Source: Vicinamibacteria bacterium | GTDB lineage: Bacteria; Acidobacteriota; Vicinamibacteria; Fen-336; JAGNNV01 | Assembly: GCA_016650185.1 (NCBI GenBank) | Contig: JAENWE010000043.1 | Coordinates: 1 to 41,367, forward strand | DNA length: 41,367 nucleotides | Reading direction: 5' to 3' | In this document: one piece after another, positions 9,759 through 39,802 of the stretch | Numbering within the stretch: position 1 is the stretch's first letter | Layout of the letters: every line of letters begins with the position of its first letter | Program-made: the position numbers and the translations under genes | The notes under the pieces: generated by a model | What the model was told of the DNA's origin: nothing | Databases searched by the model: none | Seen by the model: the letters and a program-made list of their open reading frames with translations, nothing else

Positions 9759-10022
9759 ATGGTCGAAGCCACGAATCCGCTGGTCGAGGAAATTCGACGC
9801 GTGATTGTGAGTGCGGCCAGGCTCGAGATCGAACCCGGTGAGATCGGTCTCGACCAGCCATTACATGGGCCGGACAGCCTTGCACTTAATTCCATCGACA
9901 TCTTCGACATGGTGGCCGAGCTCGAAGGGAAACTCGGAATCCAGGTCCCGGACGAAGAGATACCGAGGCTCAATTCAGTCGCTGCGATCCTGGCCTTCGT
10001 CGAATCGCGCCGAAATGCCTGA
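9759..10022 (+). CDS. Acyl carrier protein (stand-alone)
   Basis: The 87-aa ORF reads ALNSIDIFDMVAELEGKLGIQVPDEE, which parallels ACP LDSLDTVELVMALEEEFxxEIPDEE. The phosphopantetheine Ser is probably in NSID. The stop overlaps the start of the next gene (ATGCCTGA, 10015-10022). Confidence 0.82.
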   Translation: MVEATNPLVEEIRRVIVSAARLEIEPGEIGLDQPLHGPDSLALNSIDIFDMVAELEGKLGIQVPDEEIPRLNSVAAILAFVESRRNA

Positions 10023-11271
10023 TCGCGTCGTCATCACCGGCCTCGGCATCGTATCCCCGCTGGGGCTTGACGCGAGAGCTCATTACGAGGCGGCGTGCGA
10101 CGGAAGGAGCGGAATTCGACCCATCGAACACTTTGACGTGACCGGCCTGAGGACGCGGTTCGCGGGCCAGGTCGACGGCGCCGGATTCGCCGCAGCCCTC
10201 GTCGATGTGGATCCAAGCAAGATGGACCGCTTCGCCCACCTGGCGGTCGTCGCCTCCCGTGCAGGTCTTGCCGACGCGCGCCTCCGGCCGGGTGAAGATG
10301 GTGTTCTGTCGGAACGTGTGGCGGTCTGCATAGGGACCGCCCAGGGCGGCCGAATCGCCGACGAGCAGGCGATGGAACGCTATTTCTCAGGAGGAGGCAA
10401 ATTCATGAGGGCGGCGGGGGTCCCGCTGATCATGCCGTCCGCGGCCACAGCATGGGTAGGCATCCTCTGCAACGCTCGGGGACCCGCCTTTCCCTTGTCT
10501 ACGGCCTGCGCCGCGGGACTGCAGAGCGTGGCCCTTGGCGCCTCGCTCATTCAGAGCGGGGCTGCAGATGTGGTGATTGCAGGCGCCGCCGATGCGCCAA
10601 TCGTCAGGACGATGATCCTCGCATGGTGCACCGCGCGCGCGACCTCGGCGCGAAACGGGGATCCGAGGTCGGCAAGCCGCCCATTCGACCTCGGACGGGA
10701 CGGTTTCGTGCTGGCCGAGGGCGCCGCCGCGCTCATTCTGGAATCCGCCGAACACGCGGTGGGCCGAGGCGCCCAGATCTACGCGGAGATCCGCGGGCAG
10801 GGTCATTCGTCGGACGGCTTCGATATGGTGGCTCCCTCGCCCTCAGGTGAGGGAGCGGCACGCGCCATGCGGGCCGCGCTCAAGAATGCGAAGGCGGAGC
10901 CGGATCAGATAACGATCGCGAGCGCTCATGGCACCTCGACCCGCATGAACGACGCCGCCGAGGCGACGGCCCTTCGCGAGGTCTTCGGAGAAAAACCCGG
11001 GCCCGCCATTATGTCGCTCAAGTCGCTTACCGGGCACGCGATGGGAGCCTCCGGAGCGATTGAAGTGGCGACCCTGGCCATGGTTCTGAAGGAGGGGGTC
11101 ATCCCACCCAATCCCAATTTGGTCGAGGTTGACCCCGCCTGCCGGCTGAACCATGTCGCCGGCTCCGCTGGTCGATACCAAGGCGGCCTGGCGATCGCCA
11201 GTTCGCTCGCTTTCGGGGGCGCCAACTCAAGCCTGGTTCTGGCTCCTTGGCCGACCCACGGGGCGTCATAG
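10015..11271 (+). CDS. Beta-ketoacyl-ACP synthase II family (FabF-like KAS)
   Basis: I trimmed the start to ATG 10015 (MPDRVVITGLGIVSPLG...). The active-site Cys is in PLSTACAAGLQSV and the two His are in SAHGTSTRMND and SLTGHAMGASGAIE. The length is about 418 aa. Confidence 0.9.
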   Translation: MPDRVVITGLGIVSPLGLDARAHYEAACDGRSGIRPIEHFDVTGLRTRFAGQVDGAGFAAALVDVDPSKMDRFAHLAVVASRAGLADARLRPGEDGVLSERVAVCIGTAQGGRIADEQAMERYFSGGGKFMRAAGVPLIMPSAATAWVGILCNARGPAFPLSTACAAGLQSVALGASLIQSGAADVVIAGAADAPIVRTMILAWCTARATSARNGDPRSASRPFDLGRDGFVLAEGAAALILESAEHAVGRGAQIYAEIRGQGHSSDGFDMVAPSPSGEGAARAMRAALKNAKAEPDQITIASAHGTSTRMNDAAEATALREVFGEKPGPAIMSLKSLTGHAMGASGAIEVATLAMVLKEGVIPPNPNLVEVDPACRLNHVAGSAGRYQGGLAIASSLAFGGANSSLVLAPWPTHGAS

Positions 11272-11375
11272 GGTCGAGAGAACCCGGGAGACCGGCGACT
11301 GCTTGGAAAAACGTCAACCGGGACGCCCGCTCCGGATACGGGAAGTCGATCATCAAGAGCATCTCAGGCCGACCG

Positions 11376-12572
11376 CTAGAACTTGTCGGCGCGCCAGGTA
11401 TGCGGGTACCCGCGCGGAAACAGGAGCGAGAGGAGCGAGACCACGCTATCGGGGGCGGCGAGGGCGGCCTCGCTCAGAACGACCGGCGCGGGCAGGGTGC
11501 CAAAAACAAGCCGGGTCAGAACGGCTCCGGGCAGCATCACCCGCATGCTCTCAACGCCCCGGGCAGGGTCTCCCATGACGCAAATCGCTTCACTGTTCTC
11601 AACAGCCAGGGTCAGGCGGATACTGGGTCCATCGGGCCGCGCCGCCAGGTAACGGCCCGACAGAACAGGCTCCAGCCTCTTGAGCAGGTTCGGTACGTTG
11701 ATGATCCTCGCCATTCCACCCCCTGAGGCGCGAAGCGTGACCTCCATCTTCGCTCCATAGCGCTCGGCGTGGGCCGCGAACGGGTGATCAGGCGGGATGT
11801 CCGCGCGAACGGATGGAGTCGGAAGACCGGTAATCCGAGGAAGCCAGGACACCAGTTCATCGAAAAACGAAGCGCTTCCTCCAATCTCATCGATATGCAC
11901 CAGTGCGTCTTCCAGGCGCAATCCCGCGTACCCCGAATCCGAGAGGAGGTAGCGGTCCGATTTTTGGTAGAGCCACGGCCACCGGACCTCTGACCGGACC
12001 AGCACTCCAGTACGGCCGACGTTGTTCTCCTGGTAAAGCCTCAGAAGGTGCGGAAGTTCCTCGGGAGTCAGTTCTCGAAGGTCGCCCCTTGCCGCCCCTA
12101 AAGGCGCCTCGAAAGTCAAAGCGTAATCCGGAGTCACCGTGACCCCGGCGAAGCGTTCGTAGTACCCACGGGTCGCCGTGAATCCAATCGCGATCTCGGC
12201 GCCATCGGCGCGGATCTGATCGAGGATCGTCTGGCCGAACCTCAGGGCGAGACCAATGCCGAAGAACTGGGGATCGATGACGAGACCGCTTATCCCGGCC
12301 GCGGGCACGAGCGTCTCTCCGATCTGCAGGCCCAGGTCGAGAAGCTGGAGCCGTCCCACCACCCTGCCGCCGGCTTCCCACAGGAAGCTTCGCTCGCGGC
12401 GCACGTAGGGGCAGGCATTGAGGGCGCCTCCAAAGAGGCTGTAGATGCGCTCGTACTCATCGCTGGCCAGAGCCCCCGCCAGGAGCTCAGCCGAGCGGCG
12501 AACATCGGCTTCGGTCGAAACCGTTCGCAGGGTAACCTCCTGGAGAGGCCTTCGTTGAGCGCCGGATGTCAT
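11376..12572 (-). CDS. Eis-like GNAT N-acyltransferase with SCP2-type C-terminal domain
   Basis: The architecture and motifs parallel mycobacterial Eis: VPAAGISGLVIDPQFFGIGLALRF (the Q-x-x-G-x-G acyl-CoA site), YYERFAGV and MARIINVPNLLKRLEPVL, with a C-terminal Phe. The probable start is ATG 12572 (MTSGAQRRPL...) and the track ORF extends to 12626. Confidence 0.72.
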   Translation of the reverse strand: MTSGAQRRPLQEVTLRTVSTEADVRRSAELLAGALASDEYERIYSLFGGALNACPYVRRERSFLWEAGGRVVGRLQLLDLGLQIGETLVPAAGISGLVIDPQFFGIGLALRFGQTILDQIRADGAEIAIGFTATRGYYERFAGVTVTPDYALTFEAPLGAARGDLRELTPEELPHLLRLYQENNVGRTGVLVRSEVRWPWLYQKSDRYLLSDSGYAGLRLEDALVHIDEIGGSASFFDELVSWLPRITGLPTPSVRADIPPDHPFAAHAERYGAKMEVTLRASGGGMARIINVPNLLKRLEPVLSGRYLAARPDGPSIRLTLAVENSEAICVMGDPARGVESMRVMLPGAVLTRLVFGTLPAPVVLSEAALAAPDSVVSLLSLLFPRGYPHTWRADKF

Positions 12573-12873: not shown

Positions 12874-13974
12874 TCAGCTCCGGCTGAAGATGACGCTGAG
12901 CATCTGGTCCTGGAACGTCTTTGTCCGGGCGATGGCTGCATCAAAGTCATCCTTGTCGAGCGCGTAGACCTCGACCGGACCCCGCGCCCGAATGGTGGCG
13001 GCCCGTGGTTCGCGGGAAATCAACGCCCGCTCGCCAAAGAAGCCCCCGCGCTGGATGGTTCCGACCACCTTGGGAGCGGTCGGACCTCCGGTTTCCACCT
13101 CCACCTCGCCCTCCCGCAGGACGTAGAAACGGTCTCCCTCTTCCCCGAATGTGATGATCGTTTCTCCCGCCTGGTACCTCAGCCGAGCCATTTTCTGGGC
13201 GACCTCCAGGAATTCCGAGGGAGTGCTGCCCGGGAAGAGTCCGGAGTCACGCAGGAGAGTGGCGGCATCTACAACCGGGGCCACCAGAACATTCGAGACG
13301 ATGCGCCCGTCCATCATGTGAACGATCCGGTCCGCCGCATCGAGAAGACGGCTGTCGTGCGTCACCATCAGAGCGGTCGAGCCCTTGCTGCGAACGAGTT
13401 CCTTCATCAGGTCAACGACATTCCGCCCCGTCTCCTTGTCGAGCGCCGCCGTGGGTTCGTCGGCGAGGATCAGCGACGGCCGGTGAACGAGCGCCCTCCC
13501 GATGGCCACTCTCTGGCGCTGTCCTCCGGAAAGACTGTCCGGCTTGTTGTTCAGACGGTGAGAAAGCCCGAGCCTCTCCAGGATCTCCCGAGTTCTTGAG
13601 TTCCTTTCGGTCGCCGGAAGGTCGCTTGAATCGAGCGCCATCCTCACGCTTTCGAATGCGGTGAGGGCGGGAAAGAGGTTGTGATGCTGGAAGATGAAGC
13701 CGATCTTGCGGCGGTAATACAGCAGGGCGCGGGTATCGAAATCCTTGAGCTCGTCGCCGCCAACCTTCAGGCTGCCCTCCTGCACCGAGCGAAGGGCGCC
13801 GATGAGACTCAGGAGAGTCGTCTTGCCCGAACCGGAAGGACCCGACATGATGACGAGTTCGCCCGGATACAGTTCCATGTTGTTCTGGCTCAGAACCTCC
13901 TTCCGGGCTTCGCCCTGGCCATAGGCAAAACTGAGATCACGAATGCGGATGAAGGGTTCTTGGGATTCACGCAT
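12874..13974 (-). CDS. devA: DevA-family ABC exporter ATPase fused to a C-terminal cyclic-nucleotide-binding domain
   Basis: The ATPase motifs are VIMSGPSGSGKTTLLSLIGALRSVQEGSLKV (a DevA-type signature), LSGGQRQRVAIGRAL and LILADEPTAALD. The C-terminal ~120 aa form a cNMP-binding fold with the phosphate-binding cassette FFGERALISREPRAATIRA. ATG 13972-13974 shares one nucleotide with the TGA of the upstream permease (TGATG). Confidence 0.85.
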   Translation of the reverse strand: MRESQEPFIRIRDLSFAYGQGEARKEVLSQNNMELYPGELVIMSGPSGSGKTTLLSLIGALRSVQEGSLKVGGDELKDFDTRALLYYRRKIGFIFQHHNLFPALTAFESVRMALDSSDLPATERNSRTREILERLGLSHRLNNKPDSLSGGQRQRVAIGRALVHRPSLILADEPTAALDKETGRNVVDLMKELVRSKGSTALMVTHDSRLLDAADRIVHMMDGRIVSNVLVAPVVDAATLLRDSGLFPGSTPSEFLEVAQKMARLRYQAGETIITFGEEGDRFYVLREGEVEVETGGPTAPKVVGTIQRGGFFGERALISREPRAATIRARGPVEVYALDKDDFDAAIARTKTFQDQMLSVIFSRS

Positions 13975-15110
13975 CAGAAGAGCTCCGCAGGGTCCGCCTG
14001 CAATACTTTGCGCAAGGCGAGAATGCCGGCGAACACACACATCGAGACCGTGAGTCCGGCCACCAGCGCCATCCGCGGCAGGGTGAGGTTGAGCAGAAGA
14101 CCGGTTGAGGCCTCGAGGACGCGGTAGAGGACCCACCCCGCGGCCAGGCTCGGAATGAGACCGACAACCGAAAGCAACACCGCTTCCACCAGCACGACCC
14201 CGATAATGTAGGCCTTGCCGAAGCCGATCGCCCGCAGTGTCGCGAACTCAGCCAGGTGGTCGGCCACCTCGGTGTAGAGGATCTGATAGCAGATCACCAC
14301 CCCCACCACGAAACCCATCGCCATGCCGATGAAAACGATGAGGCTGACCGGAGTGCCGGTATCCCAGTGCTCGAAATCCATGGCTCGGACCTCGTCTTTC
14401 GTGCGCACGGCGGCATCTCCCGGGAGGCCCGCGCGCAGCCCTTCAATGACCCGCTGCGGTTCGGCCCCGGGCTTCAGCTTCACCGCGATGAGTTCGATTC
14501 CGTTCATGGATTGGTGGGTGATCCGCGCGAACGTCTCGTCGCTCACGAGCAGATTCCCGTCGACCTCCAGGTCCGTGGCCATCGCAAAGGTTCCGACGAC
14601 CGAGAGCCCCTCCTTCTGGACCTGGGCCGGGCCAACCCCGATCCGACCCAGATAGCTCCTGGATCGGCTGTCGAGGAGAGCGGTGCCTGGTTGTCCAAGC
14701 AGTTTCGCCCCCGCACGGATGTCCGGGGGGAGAAACATCGGATCGTCCGGGCGAAAGCCCAGCACTCGGATGGGCCGAAAAGCGCCGTTCTCCAGGTTCT
14801 TCCAGTAAAGAAAGCGGAACCATAAAGGGTAGGCGGCAGCAACGCCCTCGACGGACAGCGTCTGTTGCACGCGAAGCAACGGAATGGTTTCCCTCTGGAT
14901 GGAGTTGTCCTTTTCTTTGTGCATGACCAGGATGTCGGCATCCAGGGACTCCAGGAGAGCAGTCACGCTGTCCAGCAGGGAATTCCTGAACCCCATCTGG
15001 ATTAGCATCAGGAAGACCGCGAAAGCGAGGGCGCCGAGCGAGGTTGCGAGGCGAGCGGGGTTGTGCCAGAGGAGGCGCCACGACAGCAGCACGGCCGATC
15101 CGGGATTCAC
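13974..15110 (-). CDS. devC: DevC-family (FtsX/MacB-type) ABC exporter permease, copy 2
   Basis: The N-terminus LLSWRLLWHNPARLATSLGALAFAVFLMLIQMGFRNSLLDS is typical of DevC. It is followed by a large periplasmic segment and a C-terminal FtsX-type helix bundle ending LQADPAELF. The start is GTG at 15110. Confidence 0.82.
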   Translation of the reverse strand: MNPGSAVLLSWRLLWHNPARLATSLGALAFAVFLMLIQMGFRNSLLDSVTALLESLDADILVMHKEKDNSIQRETIPLLRVQQTLSVEGVAAAYPLWFRFLYWKNLENGAFRPIRVLGFRPDDPMFLPPDIRAGAKLLGQPGTALLDSRSRSYLGRIGVGPAQVQKEGLSVVGTFAMATDLEVDGNLLVSDETFARITHQSMNGIELIAVKLKPGAEPQRVIEGLRAGLPGDAAVRTKDEVRAMDFEHWDTGTPVSLIVFIGMAMGFVVGVVICYQILYTEVADHLAEFATLRAIGFGKAYIIGVVLVEAVLLSVVGLIPSLAAGWVLYRVLEASTGLLLNLTLPRMALVAGLTVSMCVFAGILALRKVLQADPAELF

Positions 15111-17293: not shown

Positions 17294-17318
17294 TAAAGAG
17301 GCATCATAGACCCAATGG

Positions 17319-17348: not shown

Positions 17349-17376
17349 CCTCGCTGTGGGCCAGCCAGAACCAGTC

Positions 17377-33866: not shown

Positions 33867-34070
33867 GTATGGCCAGGCTAGGATAGGCGGCTCTATGCCA
33901 CCTTGCAATGACCTCCGGCACGTGCCTTCAAGAAACAGGACAACGGGATCATGGAAACGACTCGAGGATGGGAACATCCAGGGCGTCCGTTTCCCACCTC
34001 CGGAGATGCAGCCAGGAGTCGCCCCCGATACCCGGCGCCGGGCTGACCATGTGTTCCGGTATCGCGTCTA

Positions 34071-35009
34071 GTGGAACGTCTGGACGTCGTCTATGCCTGG
34101 GTGGATGGAGCCTGGCCCGGCTACCGGGACGAACTCTCACGCTACGCGGGCCGTCCCGTCGACTTGAACCCCAACCGCCACCGCGACAATCTCGACCTGT
34201 TGAAATACAGTCTTCGCTCCCTGGAGGTCTTCGCCCCCTGGATTGAGAGGATTCACCTGGTAACCGCTCGTCCGCAGTCGCCTTCCTGGCTGAACCCGCA
34301 CGCACCGGGCCTCAAAGTGATTCACCATGACGAGTTGTTCGCGCTCCGACACCTTCCGACCTTCAACTCCTTCGCCATCGAGTCCTATCTGTATCTCCTG
34401 CCCGACCTCTCACCCCGCTTCTTGTACTTCAACGACGATATGGTCCTCGGCCGCACCCTTCACCCTGGAGACGTGATGACCAAAGACGGTCGGGCGCGCA
34501 TCCACCTCGAATGGAATCCTTCGATCGCCCGGCGAAAGGATGAGCATCCCTGGCGCGCCGCCATCGGCTTCGCGAACGAGCTGCTCGATAAAGCCTTCGG
34601 CGCGGCCAATGCGCGGCGTCTGGTGCGCCATGCTCCGGTGTTGATGGAGATCCAACGCTGGCAGGCACTCGCTGATAAGTGGCCCGAGCCCCTGGAAGCC
34701 ACGCGGTCCGGGCGCTTCCGTTCGGGAGACACGTTCGCTCCCGACTTCCTCTATCCGTACTTTTGTCTCGCTACCGGGCACGCAACCGCGGTATCGATCG
34801 TGGACAGTTACCGCCAGGCCGCCTATGTTGGTCTCGATAACCGGGGGTGGCTGGTGAGCCTCCAGCTCGCCGTCGTCGATCGCCTCCGCCCCCTTTTCCT
34901 CACCCTGAACGACAATTTCGACGAAACGGCTGCGGAGGCCGTCGTGGCCTCGGTGCGCCGATTCCTCGAGTCGTGGTTTCCGCGCCCCTCGCGCTTTGAG
35001 AAGCCATGA
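34071..35009 (+). CDS. Stealth-family hexose-1-phosphoryltransferase
   Basis: The Stealth conserved regions are present: CR1 VVYAWVDG, CR2 NRHRDNLDLLKYSLRSLEVFAPWIERIHLVT...PSWL, and CR3 LPTFNSFAIESYLYLLPDLSPRFLYFNDDMVLG. The start is GTG at 34071. Confidence 0.85.
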   Translation: MERLDVVYAWVDGAWPGYRDELSRYAGRPVDLNPNRHRDNLDLLKYSLRSLEVFAPWIERIHLVTARPQSPSWLNPHAPGLKVIHHDELFALRHLPTFNSFAIESYLYLLPDLSPRFLYFNDDMVLGRTLHPGDVMTKDGRARIHLEWNPSIARRKDEHPWRAAIGFANELLDKAFGAANARRLVRHAPVLMEIQRWQALADKWPEPLEATRSGRFRSGDTFAPDFLYPYFCLATGHATAVSIVDSYRQAAYVGLDNRGWLVSLQLAVVDRLRPLFLTLNDNFDETAAEAVVASVRRFLESWFPRPSRFEKP

Positions 35010-36721
35010 GCGGATCCATGACGTTCGTTGACGTGCTGCGCCGTCGCGCCGAAAGCCGGGAGGGTGAGAAAGGCTACACCTTCCTGGTCGATGGCGAGGG
35101 CCTCGAGGAACGACTCAACTACGCCGAACTGGCGGTTCGCGCCCGGCTGATTGGAGGAAGGCTGGCCGCCCGGATCCCGCGGGGCGTCCGGGCTGTGCTT
35201 GTTTTTGACCCCGGGCTCGCATACATCGCGACGCTTTTCGGCTGCTTGCAGGCCGGCATCGTGGCCGTTCCGGCATACCCGCCGAACCCCCTTCGGCCGG
35301 AAGCCGGCCTCGACCAGATCGAACGCGTGACCGCAAGTGCAAAGGCCAGGTTCATCCTGGGCTCCGGCGAACTCCTGGGCCGTCTGCACAATCTGCTCAG
35401 AGGCGCCCCCTGGGTGCAGGGCCTGGGGTGGATCGACGTCAGCGCCGCCGACGCCGATCAGGCGAACTGTCTCCCTGAGGTTTCGGAGGACGACATCGCC
35501 ATCATCCAGTACACCTCCGGTTCCACGTCCGAACCCAAGGGCGTGATGGTGACCCATCGCAACCTGATTCAGAACGCCGAGTTCATTCGTGCAGGCTTCG
35601 CACTCACCGAGAATGCCAGTGGCGTCTCCTGGCTGCCTCCCCATCACGACATGGGTCTGATGGGAGGGATCATCCAGCCTCTGTTCATGGGCATGAACAT
35701 GGTTCTCCTATCGCCCCAGCTTTTCGCGCGGCGTCCGGCCACCTTCCTCGAGGCCATTTCGCGATTTCAGTTGACGGGTGGGGGCGGCCCGAACTTCGCA
35801 TACGACATGCTGACCAGGAGGGTGGGCGAAGCGGCCAAGGCCCAGCTGGACCTCTCGTCCTGGAATCTGGCGTTTTGTGGAGCGGAGCCGGTGCGCGCGG
35901 CGACCCTCGACGCCTTCGCCGATGCCTTCGCGGGATGTGGCTTTCGCCGCGAGGCTTTTCTCCCGTGCTACGGCCTCGCCGAGGCGACTCTTCTGGTCAC
36001 CGCCTCTGAATTCACCAGGGAGCCGCGACGCCTGACTCTCGACGACGGCGCGCTCGAGAAGGGTTTTGTGGTGCCTGCCGACCCTTGCCTGCCGGGAACA
36101 CGCGCGTTCGTCAGTTGCGGCCGTGCGCCAGCCGGCATGCGAGTGACGATTGTCGATCCCGGGACCGGTCAGGTTCAACCGAAAGGCCGAACCGGCGAGA
36201 TCTGGGTCAAGGGCCCCAACGTCGCCGCGGGATACTGGGACGCCCCGCTCGCCACCGCGGCCAGCTTCAATGCACAACTCGACGACGGGCAGTCGGGATT
36301 CCTTCGTACCGGCGACCTCGGTTTCATCGATCAGGGCGAGTTGTTCATCACCGGAAGGTTCAAAGACCTGATCATCATTCGGGGCCGCAATCTGCACCCC
36401 CAGGACATCGAGTCGACCGTCGAAAACGCTCACTCCGCGGTGCGGCCGGGCCGATCAGCCGCGTTCTCCGTGGAGGTCGAGGGCGACGAGCGGCTGGTCG
36501 TGGTCTTCGAAGTCGGCCGCCGGGCCCTCCTCGATCCCGCACCCGTCCGGGAAGCGGTCCGACGGGCGGTCGCCGGAGCGCACAGCATCGTTCCCCACGA
36601 GATCGTCCTTCTAGAGCCCGCAAGGCTCCCCCGCACATCGAGCGGCAAACCGCGAAGGGTCCTCACTCGGCAGCGGTTCCTGGCGGGGCGGCTCGGTCTC
36701 GACGTGGAGACCCCCGAATGA
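35006..36721 (+). CDS. Fatty acyl-AMP ligase (FAAL, FadD32-like adenylating enzyme)
   Basis: The N-terminus is TFVDVLRRRAESREGEKGYTFL...LNYAELAVRA. The adenylation motifs are IIQYTSGSTSEPKGVMVTHRNL, WLPPHHDMGLMGG, TGDLGFI and SSGKPRR. The ATG overlaps the Stealth TGA (ATGA at 35006-35009). Confidence 0.88.
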   Translation: MSGSMTFVDVLRRRAESREGEKGYTFLVDGEGLEERLNYAELAVRARLIGGRLAARIPRGVRAVLVFDPGLAYIATLFGCLQAGIVAVPAYPPNPLRPEAGLDQIERVTASAKARFILGSGELLGRLHNLLRGAPWVQGLGWIDVSAADADQANCLPEVSEDDIAIIQYTSGSTSEPKGVMVTHRNLIQNAEFIRAGFALTENASGVSWLPPHHDMGLMGGIIQPLFMGMNMVLLSPQLFARRPATFLEAISRFQLTGGGGPNFAYDMLTRRVGEAAKAQLDLSSWNLAFCGAEPVRAATLDAFADAFAGCGFRREAFLPCYGLAEATLLVTASEFTREPRRLTLDDGALEKGFVVPADPCLPGTRAFVSCGRAPAGMRVTIVDPGTGQVQPKGRTGEIWVKGPNVAAGYWDAPLATAASFNAQLDDGQSGFLRTGDLGFIDQGELFITGRFKDLIIIRGRNLHPQDIESTVENAHSAVRPGRSAAFSVEVEGDERLVVVFEVGRRALLDPAPVREAVRRAVAGAHSIVPHEIVLLEPARLPRTSSGKPRRVLTRQRFLAGRLGLDVETPE

Positions 36722-37362
36722 TCGACAGTCTCTACCGGTCGAAACAGGATGCGTTCTGGGACCGGTTGGGAGGCGTTCTTGCCCGGCGCGGCGTGTCGCC
36801 GGATGCCGTGACCAAAGGCGCGTTTCTTCTGAGCACGCTCAACTCTTTCGCCTTCCTCGTTCACCGCAACTTCCTCGCCTACGGTCTGCTGCTCGCGATG
36901 ACGGAACTTCTGGACAACTTGGACGGGGCCGTCGCCCGCGTGAGCGGGCGGAAGACGAGGTATGGCGCGTTTCTCGATGCGGCCACGGATCGCTACAAGG
37001 AGTCGCTGAGTCTGTTCGTCGTGGCCTGGGTGACGGGCTACTGGGTCGCGTGTTTCGCGGCGGTGACGGGCTCCCTGCTCACGAGCTACAACCGCGCGCG
37101 CGCCGCCGTCGAAGGCGCACAGGCCGCCGCCACGGGTCTTGATCTCTTTGAGCGCTTCGAACGTGTGGCGACACTCGTGCTGGGTCTCGTTCTTTCTCCG
37201 CTCTTGCCGCCCTCGCTGTTCCTCGGTCGCGACGCCCTCTGGGGCGCGTTGGTGTTGATCGGGATCTTGTCTCACCTAACGTCGGTTCAGCGCGTGTGGC
37301 GTGCCCGCCGGGTCCTGCGTGAACTTGACCGCGGGTCGTCCTCTCCCTTCCCCCGGGCCTGA
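36718..37362 (+). CDS. CDP-alcohol phosphatidyltransferase family protein
   Basis: The motif D-x2-D-G-x2-A-R-x8-G-x3-D-x3-D is read as DNLDGAVARVSGRKTRYGAFLDAATDRYKE. The protein is a multi-pass membrane protein of about 214 aa. The ATG overlaps the FAAL TGA (ATGA at 36718-36721). The track ORF from 36085 is an in-frame artefact over the FAAL 3' end. Confidence 0.85.
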   Translation: MIDSLYRSKQDAFWDRLGGVLARRGVSPDAVTKGAFLLSTLNSFAFLVHRNFLAYGLLLAMTELLDNLDGAVARVSGRKTRYGAFLDAATDRYKESLSLFVVAWVTGYWVACFAAVTGSLLTSYNRARAAVEGAQAAATGLDLFERFERVATLVLGLVLSPLLPPSLFLGRDALWGALVLIGILSHLTSVQRVWRARRVLRELDRGSSSPFPRA

Positions 37363-38523
37363 ATGGTTTCGCCCGAACTCTTCGATCTGAAATCGCCGGC
37401 GCGACGAAGGGTGGCGCTTCTGGTGTGTCGTCTCTATGCGGTGTTGCCCTGCGTCATCACGCCCCTCGTGACGGGCTTCTTGTGCGCGATCGAGAACGGC
37501 GTCTTCGCGGCCGCGGGCCTGGTCATCGTTTCCTCCGCTTTGATGGCCGTCCGGTTCCCTGACTTCCGAGAGAAGTCAGGCGCCATGGCGCTGAACGCCC
37601 TTTTCTACTTCACTCTGATCGCCCTGCCTCCGCTCGTTTTGCCTTTCGCCGGTCCTGCGGGCTTCCTTGCCGGAGCGATCTTCGGATCGGTGCTGTCACT
37701 GGCCGTGATCGGCTGGATCCCTCGCGTGCCCCGCGTGGGGTCGATGCTTCAGCCGGAGCTTTTTCCCGATGTGCTCACAGGACTGATCCTGAGCCTGCTC
37801 TTTTACATACCCGTTTTCCTTCTCAAGCGCCCGCGACTCGCCCCGCTCGAACCGGCCCCGCCTTTCGACGTGGCGGTGATCCTCTGCGCCTACCAGGAGG
37901 AGGCCACGATTGACGAATCACTCGCGAGTATCCGGGTTGCGGTCGACTGCCTGCGGGGATCGCCGCTCGTGAAACGAGTCCGCGTCATCCTCGTGGACTC
38001 GAGTCCCGTCGAAGCGACGCGCCGGCGCGTCGCTTCCCAGGTCGACCGCGTGATCGACGGAGACTCGGGGAAGCTGAGTGCCCGCCATCAGGCGATGCGC
38101 CTCGAAAATGCGGACATTTTCGTGGCCGCGGACGCCGATCGCCGCTATGACCCCGAATGGCTGGTGACCCTGCTGGCGCCCTTCGCCGACCCGAGGGTGG
38201 TGGCGACCATGGGAGAGACGCGAAACGCGGGTGCGGGCATGAGTGCTAGCGCCTTGTGTCGCGCCACGCTGAAGCTCCCGTACAACGGCGGCAACTCCGC
38301 CTTCTTTCGTTCCGCCTACTTCGCGGCGCCCTTCGCCACCACCATCGATCAGGGTCGGCACAAGGAACTCTGGGTCGAGGAGGAGTTTCTGTTCGGCTTG
38401 ACTCTGCAGGCGCAGGGACGCATAGCCCATGTGATGGAATGCCGCTCCTACGAACTGCGCCCCTACCCGCTTTTCGCCCAGCTCTCGCGTCATCTCTTCG
38501 GCGTGCGGCTTCGGACTTTCTGA
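37363..38523 (+). CDS. Membrane-anchored GT2-family glycosyltransferase
   Basis: Four or five N-terminal hydrophobic helices are followed by a GT-A domain with FDVAVILCAYQEEATIDESL and VAADADRRYDPEWL (DxD). The ATG directly follows the upstream TGA (TGAATG). Confidence 0.75.
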   Translation: MVSPELFDLKSPARRRVALLVCRLYAVLPCVITPLVTGFLCAIENGVFAAAGLVIVSSALMAVRFPDFREKSGAMALNALFYFTLIALPPLVLPFAGPAGFLAGAIFGSVLSLAVIGWIPRVPRVGSMLQPELFPDVLTGLILSLLFYIPVFLLKRPRLAPLEPAPPFDVAVILCAYQEEATIDESLASIRVAVDCLRGSPLVKRVRVILVDSSPVEATRRRVASQVDRVIDGDSGKLSARHQAMRLENADIFVAADADRRYDPEWLVTLLAPFADPRVVATMGETRNAGAGMSASALCRATLKLPYNGGNSAFFRSAYFAAPFATTIDQGRHKELWVEEEFLFGLTLQAQGRIAHVMECRSYELRPYPLFAQLSRHLFGVRLRTF

Positions 38524-38824
38524 AATCACGCCCTTTGTACGCACTCCGTGATGTCAAGAACCGCGAGGTGGTCGGGCGGCGGAGTGCGGGGCGGCGCGCG
38601 CGGTCCGGCACGTCGGTCACCTCGCCCGCCGCAGCTGCCGCCTGCCCGGCCTGCGCGTGGTTTTAGGTACGATGAGGAGACCTCCGCTTCACGGAGCGAT
38701 TCCGACTGATACCGCGAAGCACCGACCGAACGGCGGGCATGGGTACGCTTTCGCAGCCACTATCAACTTGAAGCGGTGAGTCGTCTCTCGTTAGCCTCCA
38801 CCCCGTTCGCAAGCTCAGCCAAAT

Positions 38825-39802
38825 ATGAAATCTGAAAGAATTCTCGTCGCCGGTGCGGGTGGGTTTATCGGAGGGCACCTCGTTGCCGACCTTCTCAGTC
38901 AGGGATACAAGGACATCCGCGCCGTGGATCGCAAGCCGATGCGTGATTGGTACCAAAAGTTCCCGCAGGTGGAGAGTTCGCGGCTCGATCTCCAGGAACA
39001 AGATGCCTGCGAGCAGGCGGTCAAAGGCGCGAAGGTCGTCTATAACCTCGCCGCCGACATGGGCGGGATGGGCTTCATCGAGCTGAACAAGGGGCTGTGC
39101 ATGCTGAGCGTGCTGATCAACACCCACCTTCTCCTCTCCGCGAAGAAGAACAACGTGCGGCGCTTTTTCTTCGCCTCCTCCGCCTGCGTTTACAACGTGG
39201 ACAAACAACGCGATCCGAACGTAACCGCGCTCAAGGAGGCGGACGCCTACCCGGCGATGCCCGAAGACGGCTACGGTTGGGAGAAACTTTTCAGCGAGCG
39301 GATGTGTCGGCATTTCCGCGAGGACTTTGGCATCCAGACGCGCGTCGCCCGTTACCACAACGTCTATGGCCCCAACGGGACCTATGAAGGAGGGCGTGAA
39401 AAAGCCCCTGCCGCGATCTGCCGCAAGGTCATCCAGGCGAAGCTTTCACAGAAGCACTCGATCGAAATCTGGGGCGACGGCAAGCAGACCCGGAGCTTCA
39501 TGTACATCGACGACTGCCTCAAAGGCACGCACATGCTCATGCGCAGCGGTGTGATCGAACCGCTCAACATCGGCAGCAGCGAGCTTGTCTCGATCAACCA
39601 GCTCGTGGACATAGTCGAGGACATTGCCGGCATCAAGCTGAAGCGGAAGTACAACCTTAGCGCCCCGAAAGGCGTGAATGGGCGTAACAGCGACAACACT
39701 CTCATCAAAGCCCGCCTCGGCTGGGAGCCAGACACCCCTCTGCGCGACGGGATGGAGAAGACCTACCGCTGGATTTACGATCAGATGACGCGCAAGAAGT
39801 AG
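38825..39802 (+). CDS. GDP-mannose 3,5-epimerase (GME-type extended SDR)
   Basis: From memory this is close to plant and bacterial GME throughout: GAGGFIGGHL, NLAADMGGMGFI, RFFFASSACVY, YGWEKL, RYHNVYGPNGTYEGGREKAPAAICRKV, WGDGKQTRSFMYIDDC and GVNGRNSDNTLIKARLGWEP. Confidence 0.85.
   Translation: MKSERILVAGAGGFIGGHLVADLLSQGYKDIRAVDRKPMRDWYQKFPQVESSRLDLQEQDACEQAVKGAKVVYNLAADMGGMGFIELNKGLCMLSVLINTHLLLSAKKNNVRRFFFASSACVYNVDKQRDPNVTALKEADAYPAMPEDGYGWEKLFSERMCRHFREDFGIQTRVARYHNVYGPNGTYEGGREKAPAAICRKVIQAKLSQKHSIEIWGDGKQTRSFMYIDDCLKGTHMLMRSGVIEPLNIGSSELVSINQLVDIVEDIAGIKLKRKYNLSAPKGVNGRNSDNTLIKARLGWEPDTPLRDGMEKTYRWIYDQMTRKK

What the first reader, a model, noticed from the sequence alone, without database searches (positions are those of the whole stretch)
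9759..39802. ~30-kb multi-operon locus joining a ceramide-type lipid core pathway to phospho/glyco head-group enzymes and two export machines
Seen in the sequence: co-directional blocks, mostly joined by 1-8 nt start/stop overlaps, encode four groups of functions. (i) A fatty acyl-AMP ligase (35006-36721), a carrier-domain-fused alpha-oxoamine synthase (28073-29575), an extended-SDR reductase (27075-28076), an Eis-like GNAT with SCP2-type tail (11376-12572), and a stand-alone ACP plus KAS II (9759-11271). (ii) A CdsA paralog, an FGGY kinase, a CDP-alcohol phosphatidyltransferase, a LicC-like/PLP fusion, LicD and Stealth. (iii) GT2, GT32-type and GT23-type transferases, two FkbM methyltransferases and a GDP-mannose 3,5-epimerase. 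(iv) An MsbA-like ABC exporter and DevB-DevC-DevC-DevA with a TolC-like gene. Established knowledge: the functions in (i) are the classes genetically required for bacterial ceramide synthesis in Caulobacter (Spt, ACP, acyl-ACP synthetase, epimerase-family reductase, GNAT-type ceramide synthase). DevBCA with a TolC homolog exports heterocyst glycolipid in cyanobacteria. Inference: the locus builds a long-chain-base (sphingolipid-like) lipid, adds a phosphodiester-linked, methylated, L-sugar-containing head group, and exports it to the outer membrane. I do not know of a described system with this exact combination.
Basis: partly seen in the sequence, partly recalled or inferred. Interest (0 to 1): 0.85.

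Follow-up and report, generated by a model that had tools for sequence, protein, structure and literature searches.

The report
Sphingolipid-like lipid synthesis and export locus
A soil acidobacterium carries a 30-kb gene cluster that most likely builds a sphingolipid-like membrane lipid by an unusual route, decorates it with phosphate-linked groups and sugars, and sits beside two export machines, which offers testable candidates for how bacteria move such lipids to their outer membrane.

Summary
One call fails: "GT23" is unsupported.

The window is a whole contig, apparently from a Vicinamibacteria (Acidobacteriota) MAG.

- **Long-chain base:** The carrier-fused oxoamine synthase falls in a clade with an SgaB-like gene. 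SgaB is a biochemically proven serine palmitoyltransferase. The clade lies away from BioF and Kbl. Natural FAAL-ACP-AOS fusions exist.
- **N-acylation:** The Eis-like GNAT occurs elsewhere as a FAAL-ACP-GNAT fusion. It is not detectably related to the canonical bacterial ceramide synthase candidate.
- **Co-conservation:** The blocks recur in shuffled order in relatives. Some relatives replace the ethanolamine-phosphate genes with aminoethylphosphonate genes.
- **Caveat:** A smaller core (DevBCA + TolC-like + FGGY kinase + CdsA-like + CDP-alcohol transferase) occurs in other bacteria without any oxoamine synthase nearby. The head-group and export machinery is therefore not specific to sphingoid lipids.

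Verdict: a new variant of bacterial sphingolipid-type biosynthesis. No chemistry has been shown.

The parts
9759..10022 (+). Stand-alone acyl carrier protein (87 aa, DSL serine)
   Evidence: Pfam PP-binding, 30 bits. Motif seen. No alignment to the Sphingomonas AcpR-like ACP.
10015..11271 (+). KAS II-type beta-ketoacyl-ACP synthase; overlaps the ACP gene by 8 nt
   Evidence: Pfam ketoacyl-synt N and C domains. fabF TIGR03150 385 bits, below the cutoff of 494. Cys165 (TACAAG), HGTST and KSLTGH present. Conserved next to the GNAT in L082, 84% identity.
11376..12572 (-). Eis-like three-domain GNAT, proposed acyl-ACP-dependent N-acyltransferase
   Evidence: Acetyltransf_9. AF2 model pLDDT 92; Foldseek matches Eis and 4my3 at TM 0.69-0.76. 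Occurs as a FAAL-ACP-GNAT fusion in P0124. Lies immediately upstream of the CDP-alcohol transferase in six loci.
12874..13974 (-). DevA-family ABC ATPase with a C-terminal cyclic-nucleotide-binding domain
   Evidence: TIGR02982 305 bits, above the cutoff of 295.8. Pfam ABC_tran + cNMP_binding.
13974..15110 (-). DevC-type permease 2 (FtsX/MacB)
   Evidence: Pfam FtsX + MacB_PCD. devC TIGR01185 277 bits against a cutoff of 290.
15115..16299 (-). DevC-type permease 1
   Evidence: Pfam FtsX + MacB_PCD. devC 288.4 bits against a cutoff of 290.35.
16301..17293 (-). DevB-family membrane-fusion protein
   Evidence: TIGR02971 169 bits, above the cutoff of 129.
17377..18942 (+). TolC-like outer-membrane factor (start uncertain, 17248-17377)
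   Evidence: Pfam OEP 103 bits. TolC family model 74 bits, below cutoff. Adjacent to DevB and to the AOS in L083, L084 and L002.
19115..19804 (+). LicD-family phosphotransferase with an N-terminal membrane anchor
   Evidence: Pfam LicD. Best NCBIfam match is diacylglycerol cholinephosphotransferase Mf1, below cutoff. Predicted TM segment at residues 1-32.
19801..21606 (+). Fusion of a LicC/PntC-like nucleotidyltransferase and a serine- or threonine-phosphate decarboxylase-like PLP domain
   Evidence: Pfam NTP_transf_3 + Aminotran_1_2. CobD model 178 bits, below cutoff. PDB 6oux 124 bits for the C-terminal half; LicC 1jyk and PntC 6pd1 for the N-terminal part.
21617..23383 (+). GT32-type glycosyltransferase (DXD region)
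   Evidence: Pfam Gly_transf_sug 29.5 bits, above the cutoff of 23. Conserved in L003 and L083.
23380..24240 (+).
   Evidence: Pfam PF24793 57 bits, above the cutoff of 27. Conserved next to the AOS in L002, L003, L083 and L084.
24277..25113 (+). FkbM-family methyltransferase 1
   Evidence: Pfam Methyltransf_21 59 bits. TIGR01444 93 bits, above the cutoff of 37.7.
25083..26039 (-).
   Evidence: Only a sub-threshold FUT8_N_cat hit. No PDB sequence match. 79% identical ortholog in L083.
26054..27022 (-). FkbM-family methyltransferase 2, with an N-terminal membrane anchor
   Evidence: Pfam Methyltransf_21 24.6 bits, above the cutoff of 22.7. Predicted TM segment at residues 1-31.
27075..28076 (-). 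Extended SDR (HpnA-like), proposed 3-keto reductase; overlaps the AOS gene by 4 nt
   Evidence: Pfam Epimerase and 3Beta_HSD. HpnA model 226 bits, below cutoff. 26% identity, E 6e-13, to the CerR-like reductase of Sphingomonas. Follows the AOS in L001-L003, L083 and L084.
28073..29686 (-). ACP-fused alpha-oxoamine synthase (SPT-like); alternative start at 29575
   Evidence: Pfam PP-binding + Aminotran_1_2. GLDS Ser84 and PLP Lys382 present. NJ tree places it in a clade with the SgaB-like gene (91%), within the SPT/LCB2 group and outside Kbl and BioF.
29834..31573 (-). MsbA-like ABC exporter (half transporter)
   Evidence: Pfam ABC_membrane + ABC_tran. MsbA_rel 503 bits and MsbA_lipidA 448 bits, both below cutoff.
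31570..33138 (-). FGGY-family kinase, substrate unknown
   Evidence: Pfam FGGY_N and FGGY_C. XylB model 313 bits, below cutoff. PDB xylulokinase and gluconokinase matches at about 185-190 bits. Paired with the CdsA-like gene in L087, L089, L096, L102 and L114.
33135..33977 (-). CdsA-like membrane CTP-transferase paralog
   Evidence: Pfam CTP_transf_1 149 bits. CdsA equivalog only 78 bits against a cutoff of 385. The C-terminal half matches TmCdsA; the signature is kept except LDVYD in place of LDRID.
34071..35009 (+). Stealth-family hexose-1-phosphate transferase
   Evidence: Pfam Stealth CR1-CR4. Conserved next to the FAAL in L081, L088 and L089.
35006..36721 (+). Fatty acyl-AMP ligase
   Evidence: Pfam AMP-binding + AMP-dom_DIP2-like. 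FAAL subfamily models 388-394 bits, below cutoffs. Next to an AOS homolog in nearly all of 80 loci. Fused as FAAL-ACP-AOS and FAAL-ACP-GNAT.
36718..37362 (+). CDP-alcohol phosphotransferase, closest to AIP/PIP synthases
   Evidence: Pfam CDP-OH_P_transf. AIP synthase model 125 bits and PIP synthase model 79 bits, both below cutoff. D(x)2DG(x)2AR(x)8G(x)3D(x)3D motif intact.
37363..38523 (+). GT2 glycosyltransferase with an N-terminal multi-pass membrane domain
   Evidence: Pfam Glycos_transf_2. Predicted TM segments. Follows the CDP-alcohol transferase in L081, L089 and L092.
38825..39802 (+). GDP-mannose 3,5-epimerase (membership of the locus less certain)
   Evidence: PDB GME 317 and 302 bits against 99 bits for the next family. 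Separated from GT2 by a 301-nt gap. Not seen after GT2 in L081.

Best explanation
The locus encodes synthesis, decoration and export of a complex amphiphile. In this lineage the hydrophobic anchor is a sphingoid (long-chain-base) lipid, probably N-acylated like a ceramide.

**Proposed steps**
1. The FAAL adenylates a fatty acid and loads it onto the ACP domain fused to the oxoamine synthase.
2. The PLP domain condenses the acyl chain with an amino acid, most likely L-serine, giving a 3-keto long-chain base.
3. The co-translated HpnA-like SDR reduces the 3-keto group.
4. The same FAAL loads the stand-alone ACP, where KAS II may extend the chain. The Eis-like GNAT then transfers that acyl group to the amine.
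5. The FGGY kinase, the CdsA-like CTP-transferase and the AIP/PIP-synthase-like CDP-alcohol transferase install a phosphodiester-linked polyol-type head group.
6. Further groups are added. The LicC-PLP fusion would make CDP-ethanolamine or CDP-aminopropanol from phosphoserine or phosphothreonine, and LicD would transfer it. Stealth would add a sugar-1-phosphate. GT2, GT32 and the GINT1_N-like protein would add sugars. GME would supply GDP-L-galactose or GDP-L-gulose. The FkbM enzymes would methylate.
7. The MsbA-like exporter flips the lipid across the inner membrane. DevBCA with the TolC-like channel expels it to the outer membrane or cell surface, possibly under cyclic-nucleotide control.

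**Shown here:** family assignments, gene fusions, synteny and phylogenetic placement.
**Inferred:** every substrate, the order of the steps, and the destination of the product.
For: - **AOS placement.** In an NJ tree the window AOS sits with an SgaB-like gene and other ACP-fused AOS in a clade with 91% support. That clade lies inside the SPT/LCB2 group (84-100% support). Kbl and BioF fall outside.
- **Link to a proven enzyme.** SgaB is a purified serine palmitoyltransferase with near-exclusive L-serine preference (PMC12134224). L105 is syntenic with the sga cluster and its AOS is 50% identical to the window AOS.
- **Fusions.** FAAL-ACP-AOS tri-domain proteins exist at about 50% identity. A FAAL lies next to an AOS homolog in nearly all of 80 loci across five phyla. 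An SDR-AOS fusion exists in Streptomyces. P0124 is a FAAL-ACP-GNAT fusion.
- **Gene linkage.** The SDR overlaps the AOS by 4 nt and follows it in all close relatives. The GNAT sits inside the Stealth-FAAL-CDPOH-GT2 block in L081 and L088.
- **Exporter next to the AOS.** DevBCA and the TolC-like gene directly abut the AOS in L083, L084 and L002.
- **A more distant lineage.** L112 (AOS 50% identical) again combines FAAL, ACP-AOS, SDR, FkbM, Stealth, LicD and an ABC exporter, together with GT21-type (ceramide glucosyltransferase family) genes.
- **Head-group swap.** Relatives replace the LicC-PLP genes with PEP mutase, Ppd, PntC and an aminotransferase, which make aminoethylphosphonate, the phosphonate analogue of ethanolamine phosphate.
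- **Exporter family membership.** DevA and DevB pass curated thresholds.
Against: - No lipid has been measured and the organism is uncultured.
- The core of DevBCA, OEP, FGGY, CdsA-like and CDPOH genes occurs without AOS, FAAL or GNAT within 10 kb in L114. It occurs without AOS or FAAL in Myxococcota-type loci L087, L096, L097 and L102. The head-group and export enzymes may therefore act on a glycerolipid.
- The GNAT has no detectable homology to the bCerS candidate, and its acceptor is unknown.
- The amino-acid specificity of the AOS is inferred only from clade membership at 50% identity. The tree is NJ, with few references and without ALAS or CqsA.
- No ceramide or LCB kinase of a known type and no inositol-phosphate synthase lies in the window.
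- Most enzyme assignments fall below NCBIfam equivalog cutoffs.
Confidence: 0.55

Rival explanations
1. The conserved core (FGGY kinase, CdsA-like, AIP/PIP-synthase-like transferase, DevBCA/TolC-like, MsbA-like) makes and exports a glycerophospholipid with an unusual polyol-phosphate head group (phosphatidyl-X-phosphate), which is then glycosylated. The AOS, SDR, FAAL and GNAT genes make a separate aminolipid, or only an optional alternative anchor, so the main product is not a sphingolipid.
For: - L114 carries the core alone, with no AOS, FAAL or GNAT within 10 kb. L087, L096, L097 and L102 carry the core without AOS or FAAL.
- The transferase is closest to enzymes that join a CDP-activated glycerolipid (CDP-diacylglycerol or CDP-archaeol) to a phosphorylated alcohol. 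An FGGY kinase is a natural source of such an alcohol phosphate.
- The CdsA signature is largely retained.
Against: - In the Vicinamibacteria-type loci the AOS and SDR genes are interleaved with the export and decoration genes, and this arrangement is kept through several rearrangements.
- The FAAL overlaps the transferase gene by 4 nt, and FAAL-ACP-GNAT directly precedes it in L088.
- A housekeeping CdsA would already supply CDP-diacylglycerol, so the need for a dedicated divergent paralog is unexplained.
Confidence: 0.25
2. The locus is chiefly a capsule or exopolysaccharide locus producing a phosphodiester-containing glycan. Stealth, LicD, the glycosyltransferases, FkbM and GME would make a methylated, phospho-substituted polysaccharide carrying a small lipid primer, and the ABC systems would export the polymer.
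For: Stealth, LicD, FkbM, GT2 and GME are typical of capsule and O-antigen loci. In the Pseudomonas sga cluster, Capsule_synth (KpsC/KpsS-like) genes accompany the AOS.
Against: - Nothing in the window matched the polymerase, flippase or export families usual for capsule loci (Wzx, Wzy, Wza, Wzc, KpsM, KpsT); none appeared in the Pfam scans.
- The exporters are of the DevBCA type, which exports glycolipid in cyanobacteria, and of the MsbA type.
- Four dedicated lipid-building enzymes (FAAL, AOS, KAS, GNAT) and three membrane phospholipid-type enzymes dominate the locus.
Confidence: 0.08
3. The FAAL, ACP-AOS and SDR genes make a diffusible specialised metabolite: an amino-alcohol signal, or a sphingoid-like inhibitor of the CAI-1, fumonisin or sphingofungin type. 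The pumps export it, and the remaining genes are an unrelated neighbouring envelope locus.
For: ACP- or PKS-coupled AOS enzymes of this clade are frequent in natural-product-like clusters on plasmids of Streptomyces, Bacillus, Planktothrix and Burkholderia. The locus is patchily distributed: only three close hits among 185,579 species genomes.
Against: - The AOS and SDR genes stay interleaved with the same envelope, head-group and export genes through several independent rearrangements. This argues for one pathway.
- The CqsA model scores far lower than the SPT, BioF and Kbl models (173 bits against 289-354; PDB 98 bits).
Confidence: 0.07

Closest known systems
Pseudomonas fluorescens MYb115 SgaAB(C) PKS-dependent sphingolipid pathway (PMC12134224)
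   Same: - The AOS belongs to the same clade. It is about 50% identical to the SgaB-like gene of the syntenic Pseudomonas plasmid locus L105, with 91% clade support.
- The acyl chain is presented on a carrier protein rather than as acyl-CoA.
- A reductase is encoded in the cluster.
- The end products carry phospho head groups.
- The accompanying genes are similar in kind: a PhyH hydroxylase in relatives, a GNAT, and sulfatase/LTA-synthase-type and capsule-type genes.
   Different: - The chain comes from a FAAL plus an ACP fused to the AOS, together with a separate ACP and KAS II. There is no iterative type I PKS.
- The reductase is an extended HpnA-like SDR, not a classical KDSR-like adh_short enzyme.
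- The GNAT is a 400-aa Eis-type protein, not a 200-aa single-domain GNAT.
- This locus adds CdsA-like, FGGY, CDP-alcohol transferase, Stealth, LicD, LicC-PLP, DevBCA and TolC-like genes.
Canonical bacterial ceramide pathway of Caulobacter and Sphingomonas (Spt, AcpR, AasR, CerR, bCerS; PMC11324152, PMC11087976)
   Same: - The same enzyme classes in the same logic: a PLP oxoamine synthase, a dedicated ACP, an adenylate-forming acyl activator, an epimerase-family reductase and an N-acyltransferase.
- Both loci also hold head-group and transport genes.
- Both reductases have HpnA as their best NCBIfam match.
   Different: - The AOS lies outside the three curated SPT equivalogs and is 32% identical to SpSPT.
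- One ACP is fused to the AOS. The free ACP does not align with AcpR.
- The activator is a FAAL.
- The GNAT is not detectably homologous to the bCerS candidate.
- The SDR has no signal peptide: its Rossmann motif begins at residue 12. CerR is reported to be periplasmic.
- The transport genes are DevBCA/TolC-like and MsbA-like, rather than LptC2/F2/G2.
DevBCA-HgdD (TolC) heterocyst glycolipid exporter of Anabaena
   Same: The components are a DevB membrane-fusion protein, DevC FtsX-type permease(s), a DevA ATPase and a TolC-like outer-membrane factor, encoded beside lipid-synthesis genes. DevA and DevB pass the curated family cutoffs.
   Different: - There are two DevC paralogs.
- DevA carries a cNMP-binding domain.
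- The host is a non-cyanobacterial heterotroph.
- The neighbouring pathway is not the Hgl polyketide-type glycolipid pathway.
Archaetidylinositol-phosphate and phosphatidylinositol-phosphate synthases acting with CarS/CdsA
   Same: A CDP-alcohol transferase with the full catalytic motif, whose best matches are AIP and PIP synthases, is paired with a dedicated CTP_transf_1 enzyme.
   Different: - Scores fall below the curated cutoffs (125 bits against 180; 79 against 170).
- No inositol-phosphate synthase lies in the locus.
- An FGGY kinase is the conserved partner, which suggests a different alcohol phosphate.
- The lipid partner may be a ceramide phosphate.
Phosphonate and phosphocholine-type decoration systems (PntC/LicC + LicD; T. 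denticola PntC-AEPT, PDB 6pd1)
   Same: A LicC-like nucleotidyltransferase is fused to a PLP enzyme, with LicD nearby. Relatives carry PEP mutase-PntC, Ppd and an aminotransferase at the equivalent place.
   Different: The PLP domain here is a class I/II serine- or threonine-phosphate decarboxylase type (CobD or 6oux-like), not the class V AEP transaminase. No PEP mutase is present in the window.

Membership tests
Serine palmitoyltransferase (functional SPT within the alpha-oxoamine synthase family) | Groups phylogenetically with characterised SPTs rather than with BioF, Kbl, ALAS or CqsA | tested here: met
   NJ tree on 358 columns with 100 bootstraps. The window AOS sits in a clade with the SgaB-like gene (91%), sister to plant LCB2 (100%), joined to bacterial SPTs (84%), with Kbl, Thermus BioF/KBL and E. 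coli BioF outside. ALAS and CqsA were not in the tree but score lower.
Serine palmitoyltransferase (functional SPT within the alpha-oxoamine synthase family) | Passes a curated SPT equivalog model (NCBIfam NF047599, NF047600 or NF047603) | tested here: not met
   Scores of 329, 289 and 215 bits against cutoffs of 640, 500 and 670. The best model is bioF at 354 bits against a cutoff of 426. The SgaB-like AOS of L105, taken by synteny to represent the proven SgaB type, shows the same pattern, so this failure is uninformative for this clade.
Serine palmitoyltransferase (functional SPT within the alpha-oxoamine synthase family) | Uses L-serine and a long-chain acyl thioester to form 3-ketosphinganine | not testable with these tools
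   Needs an enzyme assay. Inferred only from about 50% identity to the SgaB-type clade (PMC12134224).
Bacterial ceramide synthase bCerS (Caulobacter CC_1154 type) | Sequence homology to bCerS | tested here: not met
   hhalign of the GNAT family profile (24 sequences) against the 383-aa N-acetyltransferase that follows lptF-lptG in the Sphingomonas SPT locus gave probability 1.5%. The reference was identified as bCerS by synteny only. The Caulobacter sequence itself was not available.
Bacterial ceramide synthase bCerS (Caulobacter CC_1154 type) | N-acylates a long-chain base or 3-ketosphinganine | not testable with these tools
   Indirect support only: the FAAL-ACP-GNAT fusion and synteny with AOS, FAAL and CDPOH genes.
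Eis-like GNAT (GNAT-GNAT-SCP2 fold) | Full-length three-domain fold with an Acetyltransf_9 N-terminal domain | tested here: met
   Pfam Acetyltransf_9. Model pLDDT 92; Foldseek matches 4my3, 2i00 and Eis 3ryo at TM 0.69-0.76 over about 420 columns. Distant family members hit SCP2_2 and Acetyltransf_17.
Ceramide reductase CerR (Caulobacter CC_1164 type) | Homology to the epimerase-family reductase encoded next to acpR-spt | tested here: inconclusive
   26% identity, E 6e-13, over the full length to the Sphingomonas NAD(P)H-binding protein upstream of ACP-SPT. Both have HpnA as best NCBIfam match. This level of similarity is common across extended SDRs.
AcpR (specialised ACP for SPT) | Sequence similarity to the ACP encoded next to spt in Rhodobacteria | tested here: not met
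   BLASTP found no alignment between the window ACP and the Sphingomonas ACP. The pathway's ACP function is instead supplied by a domain fused to the AOS.
DevBCA ABC exporter with TolC-like outer-membrane factor | DevA-, DevB- and DevC-family proteins encoded together with an OEP | tested here: met
   DevA 305 bits against a cutoff of 295.8. DevB 169 bits against 129. DevC1 288.4 bits and DevC2 276.8 bits, both just under the cutoff of 290.35. OEP Pfam 103 bits.
DevBCA ABC exporter with TolC-like outer-membrane factor | Exports a glycolipid across the outer membrane | not testable with these tools
   Needs genetics and lipid localisation.
MsbA (lipid A flippase) | Passes the MsbA equivalog model | tested here: not met
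   TIGR02203 448 bits against a cutoff of 602. MsbA_rel 503 bits against 780. It is MsbA-like, not an MsbA ortholog.
CdsA (phosphatidate cytidylyltransferase) | Passes the CdsA equivalog model and keeps the C-terminal signature | tested here: inconclusive
   Pfam CTP_transf_1 149 bits, but the equivalog scores 78 bits against a cutoff of 385. The signature SxxKRx4KDxG...HGGxLDxxD is present with R replaced by V. The family also contains CTP-dependent lipid kinases.
AIP/PIP synthase (CDP-alcohol phosphotransferase acting on inositol-1-phosphate) | Passes the curated model; catalytic motif present; inositol-phosphate supply available | tested here: not met
   125 bits against a cutoff of 180, and 79 bits against 170. 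The motif is intact. No inositol-phosphate synthase was found in the window.
GDP-mannose 3,5-epimerase | Specific similarity to solved GMEs over other extended SDRs | tested here: met
   317 and 302 bits to GME structures 8sg0 and 2c59, against 99 bits for the next family.
GT23 fucosyltransferase | Significant match to a GT23/FUT8 model | tested here: not met
   FUT8_N_cat E 0.0023, 17.2 bits against a cutoff of 27.6. No PDB sequence hit.

The most novel reading that the evidence does not exclude
The locus encodes a sphingolipid counterpart of the CDP-diacylglycerol pathway.

- The FGGY enzyme would act as a long-chain-base or ceramide kinase.
- The Eis-like GNAT would be a third, independently evolved ceramide synthase, fed by FAAL-loaded acyl-ACP.
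- The CdsA paralog would make CDP-ceramide, an intermediate never described.
- The AIP-synthase-like enzyme would couple CDP-ceramide to an alcohol phosphate.
- MsbA-like and DevBCA-TolC-like machines would then form a dedicated route from the inner to the outer membrane for bacterial sphingolipids. That transport step is still unknown in every model organism.
Probability: 0.15. Interest if true: 0.9.

Novelty: new variant of a known kind. Interest (0 to 1): 0.68.

Why it matters
Bacterial sphingolipids are now thought to be widespread. Only two biosynthetic routes are characterised: Spt/CerR/bCerS, and the PKS-dependent Sga route. The 2024 papers read here state that the flippases and transporters that move these lipids to the outer membrane are unidentified (PMC11087976, PMC11324152).

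This locus offers four things:
- A third way to feed an SPT-type enzyme, through a FAAL and a fused ACP.
- A candidate non-homologous ceramide synthase, of the Eis fold and linked to acyl-ACP.
- A conserved enzyme trio (FGGY, CdsA-like, CDP-alcohol transferase) that may define a new way of building phospho head groups.
- Two concrete exporter candidates, physically linked to the pathway in several lineages.

It also extends candidate sphingoid-lipid production to Vicinamibacteria, an abundant soil group, which matters for interpreting environmental lipidomes. The swap between ethanolamine-phosphate genes and aminoethylphosphonate genes in relatives gives a natural comparison for assigning head-group enzymes.

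Tried and rejected
- **Exact look-up of the SDR protein:** not on record. The source was inferred from relatives instead.
- **Stankeviciute et al. 2022:** not held in the library, so the true Caulobacter Spt, bCerS and CerR sequences could not be used. A Sphingomonas locus found through the plasmid collection served as the canonical reference.
- **Word-index search with the GNAT:** only two relatives found. The exhaustive profile search was needed.
- **Metagenome scan with GNAT alignments:** One alignment call was wasted on a junk row. The CDP-alcohol transferase was used as the anchor instead.
- **First AlphaFold model of the GNAT:** built from three sequences and unusable (pLDDT 48). It was redone with 24 sequences.
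- **Rfam scan of the window:** no matches.
- **Literature searches:** searches for FAAL + oxoamine synthase clusters and for Acidobacteria or Vicinamibacteria sphingolipids found nothing relevant. The Nostoc SPT-like paper concerns a different, non-ACP enzyme.
- **LicC-PLP fusion as a PntC-AEP transaminase:** rejected. The PLP domain matches serine- or threonine-phosphate decarboxylases, and only the N-terminal part matches 6pd1.
- **FGGY kinase as a homolog of the Caulobacter ceramide kinase CpgB:** rejected. CpgB is of the DAG-kinase/LCB5 type.
- **ORF listing of L090, L097 and L102:** attempted in order to annotate the gaps, but too noisy at this GC content to use.

Full report
**1. What is in the sequence**

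The window is 41,367 bp at about 65% GC, with no compositional break. It is a complete contig in the protein collection (P0001). Between 9759 and 39802 I find 25 genes in frames with GC3 of 0.67-0.81. They form five transcription-unit-like blocks:
- ACP-KAS on the plus strand.
- DevB-DevC-DevC-DevA-(gap)-GNAT on the minus strand.
- TolC-like, LicD, LicC/PLP, GT32, GINT1_N-like, FkbM on the plus strand.
- CdsA-like, FGGY, MsbA-like, (gap), ACP-AOS, SDR, FkbM, unknown on the minus strand.
- Stealth, FAAL, CDP-alcohol transferase, GT2, (gap), GME on the plus strand.

Of 20 same-strand junctions, nine overlap by 1-8 nt and six more are gaps of 0-14 nt. The flanks hold unrelated genes: an ABC-F protein, kynureninase, a cupin, DUF885, a carbonic anhydrase and a zinc ADH. 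No Rfam family was found.

**2. Family assignments**

- *Well supported:*
  - DevA and DevB pass curated NCBIfam cutoffs, and both DevC paralogs fall just under.
  - The last gene is clearly a GDP-mannose 3,5-epimerase (317 bits to solved GMEs against 99 for the next family).
  - KAS II has its Cys/His/His triad.
  - Both carrier domains have their serine, and the AOS has its PLP lysine.
  - The CDP-alcohol transferase has the complete catalytic motif.
- *Eis-like GNAT:* the description is borne out by a high-confidence model (pLDDT 92) that matches Eis-family structures over the full length.
- *Corrections:*
  - "GT23" is not supported.
  - A GINT1_N-like gene at 23380-24240 was missed.
  - DevA carries a cyclic-nucleotide-binding domain.
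- *LicC/PLP fusion:* the PLP half resembles serine- or threonine-phosphate decarboxylases (CobD model 178 bits; PDB 6oux). It does not resemble an AEP transaminase. This suggests CDP-ethanolamine or CDP-aminopropanol synthesis for LicD.

**3. Source organism**

The closest AOS homologs (69-83% identity) are from Vicinamibacteria and Acidobacteriota MAGs. Next come Gemmatimonadota (about 52%), then Planctomycetota, Cyanobacteria and Legionella. Only three species-level genomes out of 185,579 carry a close homolog. The locus is therefore rare and patchily distributed.

**4. Is the oxoamine synthase an SPT?**

- Against solved structures the best match is Sphingobacterium SPT (243 bits), ahead of BioF/KBL (210) and LCB2 (207).
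- Curated models are indecisive. bioF scores 354 bits and SPT-CFB 329, all below cutoff.
- A search of the plasmid collection found a Pseudomonas locus (L105) with a type I PKS, an AOS, PhyH, capsule genes, a GNAT, an LTA synthase and an SDR. Its gene order matches the locus-tag spacing of the P. fluorescens MYb115 sga cluster.
- The AOS of that cluster, SgaB, was purified and shown to prefer L-serine almost exclusively and to make 3-ketosphinganines (PMC12134224).
- The window AOS is about 50% identical to the SgaB-like protein of L105. It is 36% identical to SmSPT, 32% to SpSPT and 30% to E. coli Kbl and BioF.
- In an NJ tree (358 columns, 100 bootstraps) it falls in a 91%-supported clade with the SgaB-like protein and the ACP-fused AOS of other phyla. 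That clade is sister to plant LCB2 and joins bacterial SPTs, with Kbl and BioF outside.
- The SgaB-like protein shows the same "best hit bioF, below cutoff" pattern. That pattern is therefore no argument against SPT function.
- Caveats: distance method, few references, no ALAS or CqsA in the tree.

**5. Links among the core-lipid genes**

- A FAAL lies beside an AOS homolog in almost all of 80 loci across five phyla. FAAL-ACP-AOS single-chain fusions exist.
- The SDR overlaps the AOS by 4 nt and follows it in every close relative. An SDR-AOS fusion is annotated in Streptomyces.
- The GNAT family is small: 40 representatives at E ≤ 1e-30 among 1.84 billion proteins. One member is a FAAL-ACP-GNAT fusion. 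This implies that the GNAT takes a FAAL-loaded acyl-ACP as its donor.
- In L081 and L088 the GNAT sits between the FAAL and the CDP-alcohol transferase, inside the block that in the window reads Stealth-FAAL-transferase-GT2.
- The window has one FAAL but two carrier sites. One is fused to the AOS. The other is free, beside KAS II and convergent with the GNAT, and this arrangement is conserved in L082.

**6. Co-conservation of the blocks**

- L083 (AOS 83% identical): DevC-DevC-DevB | TolC-AOS-SDR-FkbM-unknown | FkbM-GINT1_N-GT32-LicC/PLP.
- L084: DevA-DevC-DevC-DevB | TolC-GINT1_N-x-AOS-SDR | LicD.
- L089: FGGY-CdsA | Stealth-FAAL-transferase-GT2.
- L112 (AOS 50% identical): GT21/GT2, FAAL, ACP-AOS, FkbM, Stealth, LicD, ABC exporter, SDR.
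- The P0328 contig: MsbA-like-FGGY-CdsA | transferase-GT2-...-desaturase-MT-Stealth-...-LicC/PLP-SDR | DevB-DevC.

The order is shuffled but the membership is kept, which argues for one pathway.

In L081, L085 and L111 a PEP mutase-PntC fusion and phosphonopyruvate decarboxylase are present, and L085 also carries a class V aminotransferase. These occupy the place of the LicC/PLP genes. That is an exchange of ethanolamine phosphate for its phosphonate analogue. Both head groups are known on sphingolipids (my own knowledge: ceramide phosphoethanolamine and ceramide aminoethylphosphonate).

**7. What weakens the ceramide reading**

- *The core occurs without the lipid-building genes.* Using the highly conserved transferase as an anchor, I found a smaller module of DevB-DevC-DevC-DevA-FGGY | CdsA-like | transferase | OEP. 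In a 6.25-Mb assembly it stands alone, with no AOS, FAAL or GNAT within 10 kb (L114). Versions with a GNAT but without AOS or FAAL occur in Myxococcota-type contigs (L087, L096, L097, L102). The head-group trio and the exporters are therefore an older, more widespread unit that could work on a glycerolipid. The sphingoid genes look like a lineage-specific addition.
- *The parallel with Caulobacter holds only at the level of enzyme class.* I used a canonical locus from Sphingomonas parapaucimobilis as reference: CerR-like, ACP, SPT [833 bits on the SPT equivalog]..., lptF-lptG-desaturase-N-acetyltransferase.
  - The GNAT profile shows no homology to the bCerS candidate (hhalign probability 1.5%).
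  - The free ACP does not align with the AcpR-like ACP.
  - The SDR is only 26% identical to the CerR-like reductase, although both have HpnA as best match.
- *The kinase is not CpgB-like.* The known Caulobacter ceramide kinase CpgB is a DAG-kinase-type enzyme, not an FGGY enzyme.

**8. Mechanism proposed**

I rate the following at about 0.55 overall.
1. FAAL to ACP-AOS (with serine) to SDR gives a long-chain base.
2. FAAL to free ACP (with or without KAS II elongation) to the Eis-like GNAT gives an N-acyl long-chain base.
3. FGGY, CdsA-like and the transferase add a phosphodiester-linked polyol-type head group.
4. LicC/PLP with LicD, Stealth, GT2, GT32, the GINT1_N-like protein, GME and the FkbM enzymes decorate the head group.
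5. The MsbA-like exporter flips the lipid, and DevBCA with the TolC-like channel expels it.

My confidence by sub-claim:
- Long-chain-base synthesis: about 0.8.
- N-acylation by the GNAT: about 0.55.
- Head-group trio acting on the sphingoid lipid: about 0.35-0.4.
- Export role of the pumps: about 0.6.

The main rival (0.25) is that the core makes an exported glycerophospholipid and the sphingoid part is separate or optional.

**9. Novelty**

I found no description of this combination in the literature available here. It is a new variant of bacterial sphingolipid-type biosynthesis. It is closest to the 2025 Sga pathway in its AOS, but differs in five respects:
- how the chain is supplied;
- the reductase type;
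- the N-acyltransferase fold;
- the phospho-head-group enzymes;
- the linked exporters.

The most novel reading still open is a CDP-ceramide pathway with a dedicated DevBCA route to the outer membrane.

Noticed in passing
window 12874-13974 (-): The DevA ATPase carries a C-terminal cyclic-nucleotide-binding domain (Pfam cNMP_binding, 78 bits). The DevA of the Myxococcota locus L087 (241 aa) and of L114 (235 aa) lack it, while the 93%-identical relative in L082 is long enough to have it. This suggests cNMP-gated export.
   Followed up: partly
L088 1151-4375 (= P0124; same contig as L094): A single 1074-aa soil-metagenome protein fuses FAAL, ACP and the Eis-like GNAT. It is followed directly by the CDP-alcohol transferase and preceded by a divergently oriented Stealth gene.
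   Followed up: yes
L114 3312-12282 (6.25-Mb assembled contig, ERZ26167894): A minimal stand-alone module: DevB-DevC-DevC-DevA-FGGY | CdsA-like | CDP-alcohol transferase | OEP, with no AOS, FAAL or GNAT within 10 kb. It may define a widespread uncharacterised unit for phospholipid synthesis and export.
   Followed up: partly
L081 6985-10546; L085 488-5131; L111 18766-21348: Relatives carry phosphonate genes where the window has LicC/PLP and LicD. L081 and L085 have a PEP mutase fused to a PntC-like nucleotidyltransferase, phosphonopyruvate decarboxylase and a second nucleotidyltransferase, and L085 also has a class V aminotransferase. L111 has PEP mutase and a decarboxylase fragment. This predicts phosphonolipid variants of the same lipid.
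   Followed up: partly
window 23380-24240 (+): A gene matching the N-terminal domain of plant glucosamine inositolphosphorylceramide transferase 1 (PF24793). It is conserved next to the AOS in four relatives, and a 563-aa version exists in L084. The link to sphingolipid head groups rests on the family name only.
   Followed up: partly
window 9132-9758: About 630 bp upstream of the ACP gene contain no ORF with coding-like composition and no Rfam hit. This may be a promoter or regulatory region for the ACP-KAS operon.
   Followed up: partly
L113 (Sphingomonas parapaucimobilis NZ_CP155753.1, 62072-103124): A 385-kb replicon labelled as a plasmid carries the SPT/ACP/CerR-like cluster together with rplU, rpmA, obgE, proB, lptF and lptG. 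It therefore looks like a chromid or a chromosome fragment rather than a plasmid.
   Followed up: no
one search hits P0041 and P0030; one search hit H29: Other natural fusions of this AOS clade: GT2-ACP-AOS (869 aa), a SnoaL-like domain fused to ACP-AOS, and an SDR-AOS bifunctional protein in Streptomyces. These are further Rosetta-stone links between the AOS, glycosylation and reduction.
   Followed up: no
L108 (Prevotella sp. oral taxon 299, NC_022111.1); also the S. meliloti and Methylobacterium records: Several megabase-sized records in the plasmid collection are evidently chromosomes. Sinorhizobium and Methylobacterium records encode AOS proteins 48-50% identical to the window AOS.
   Followed up: no
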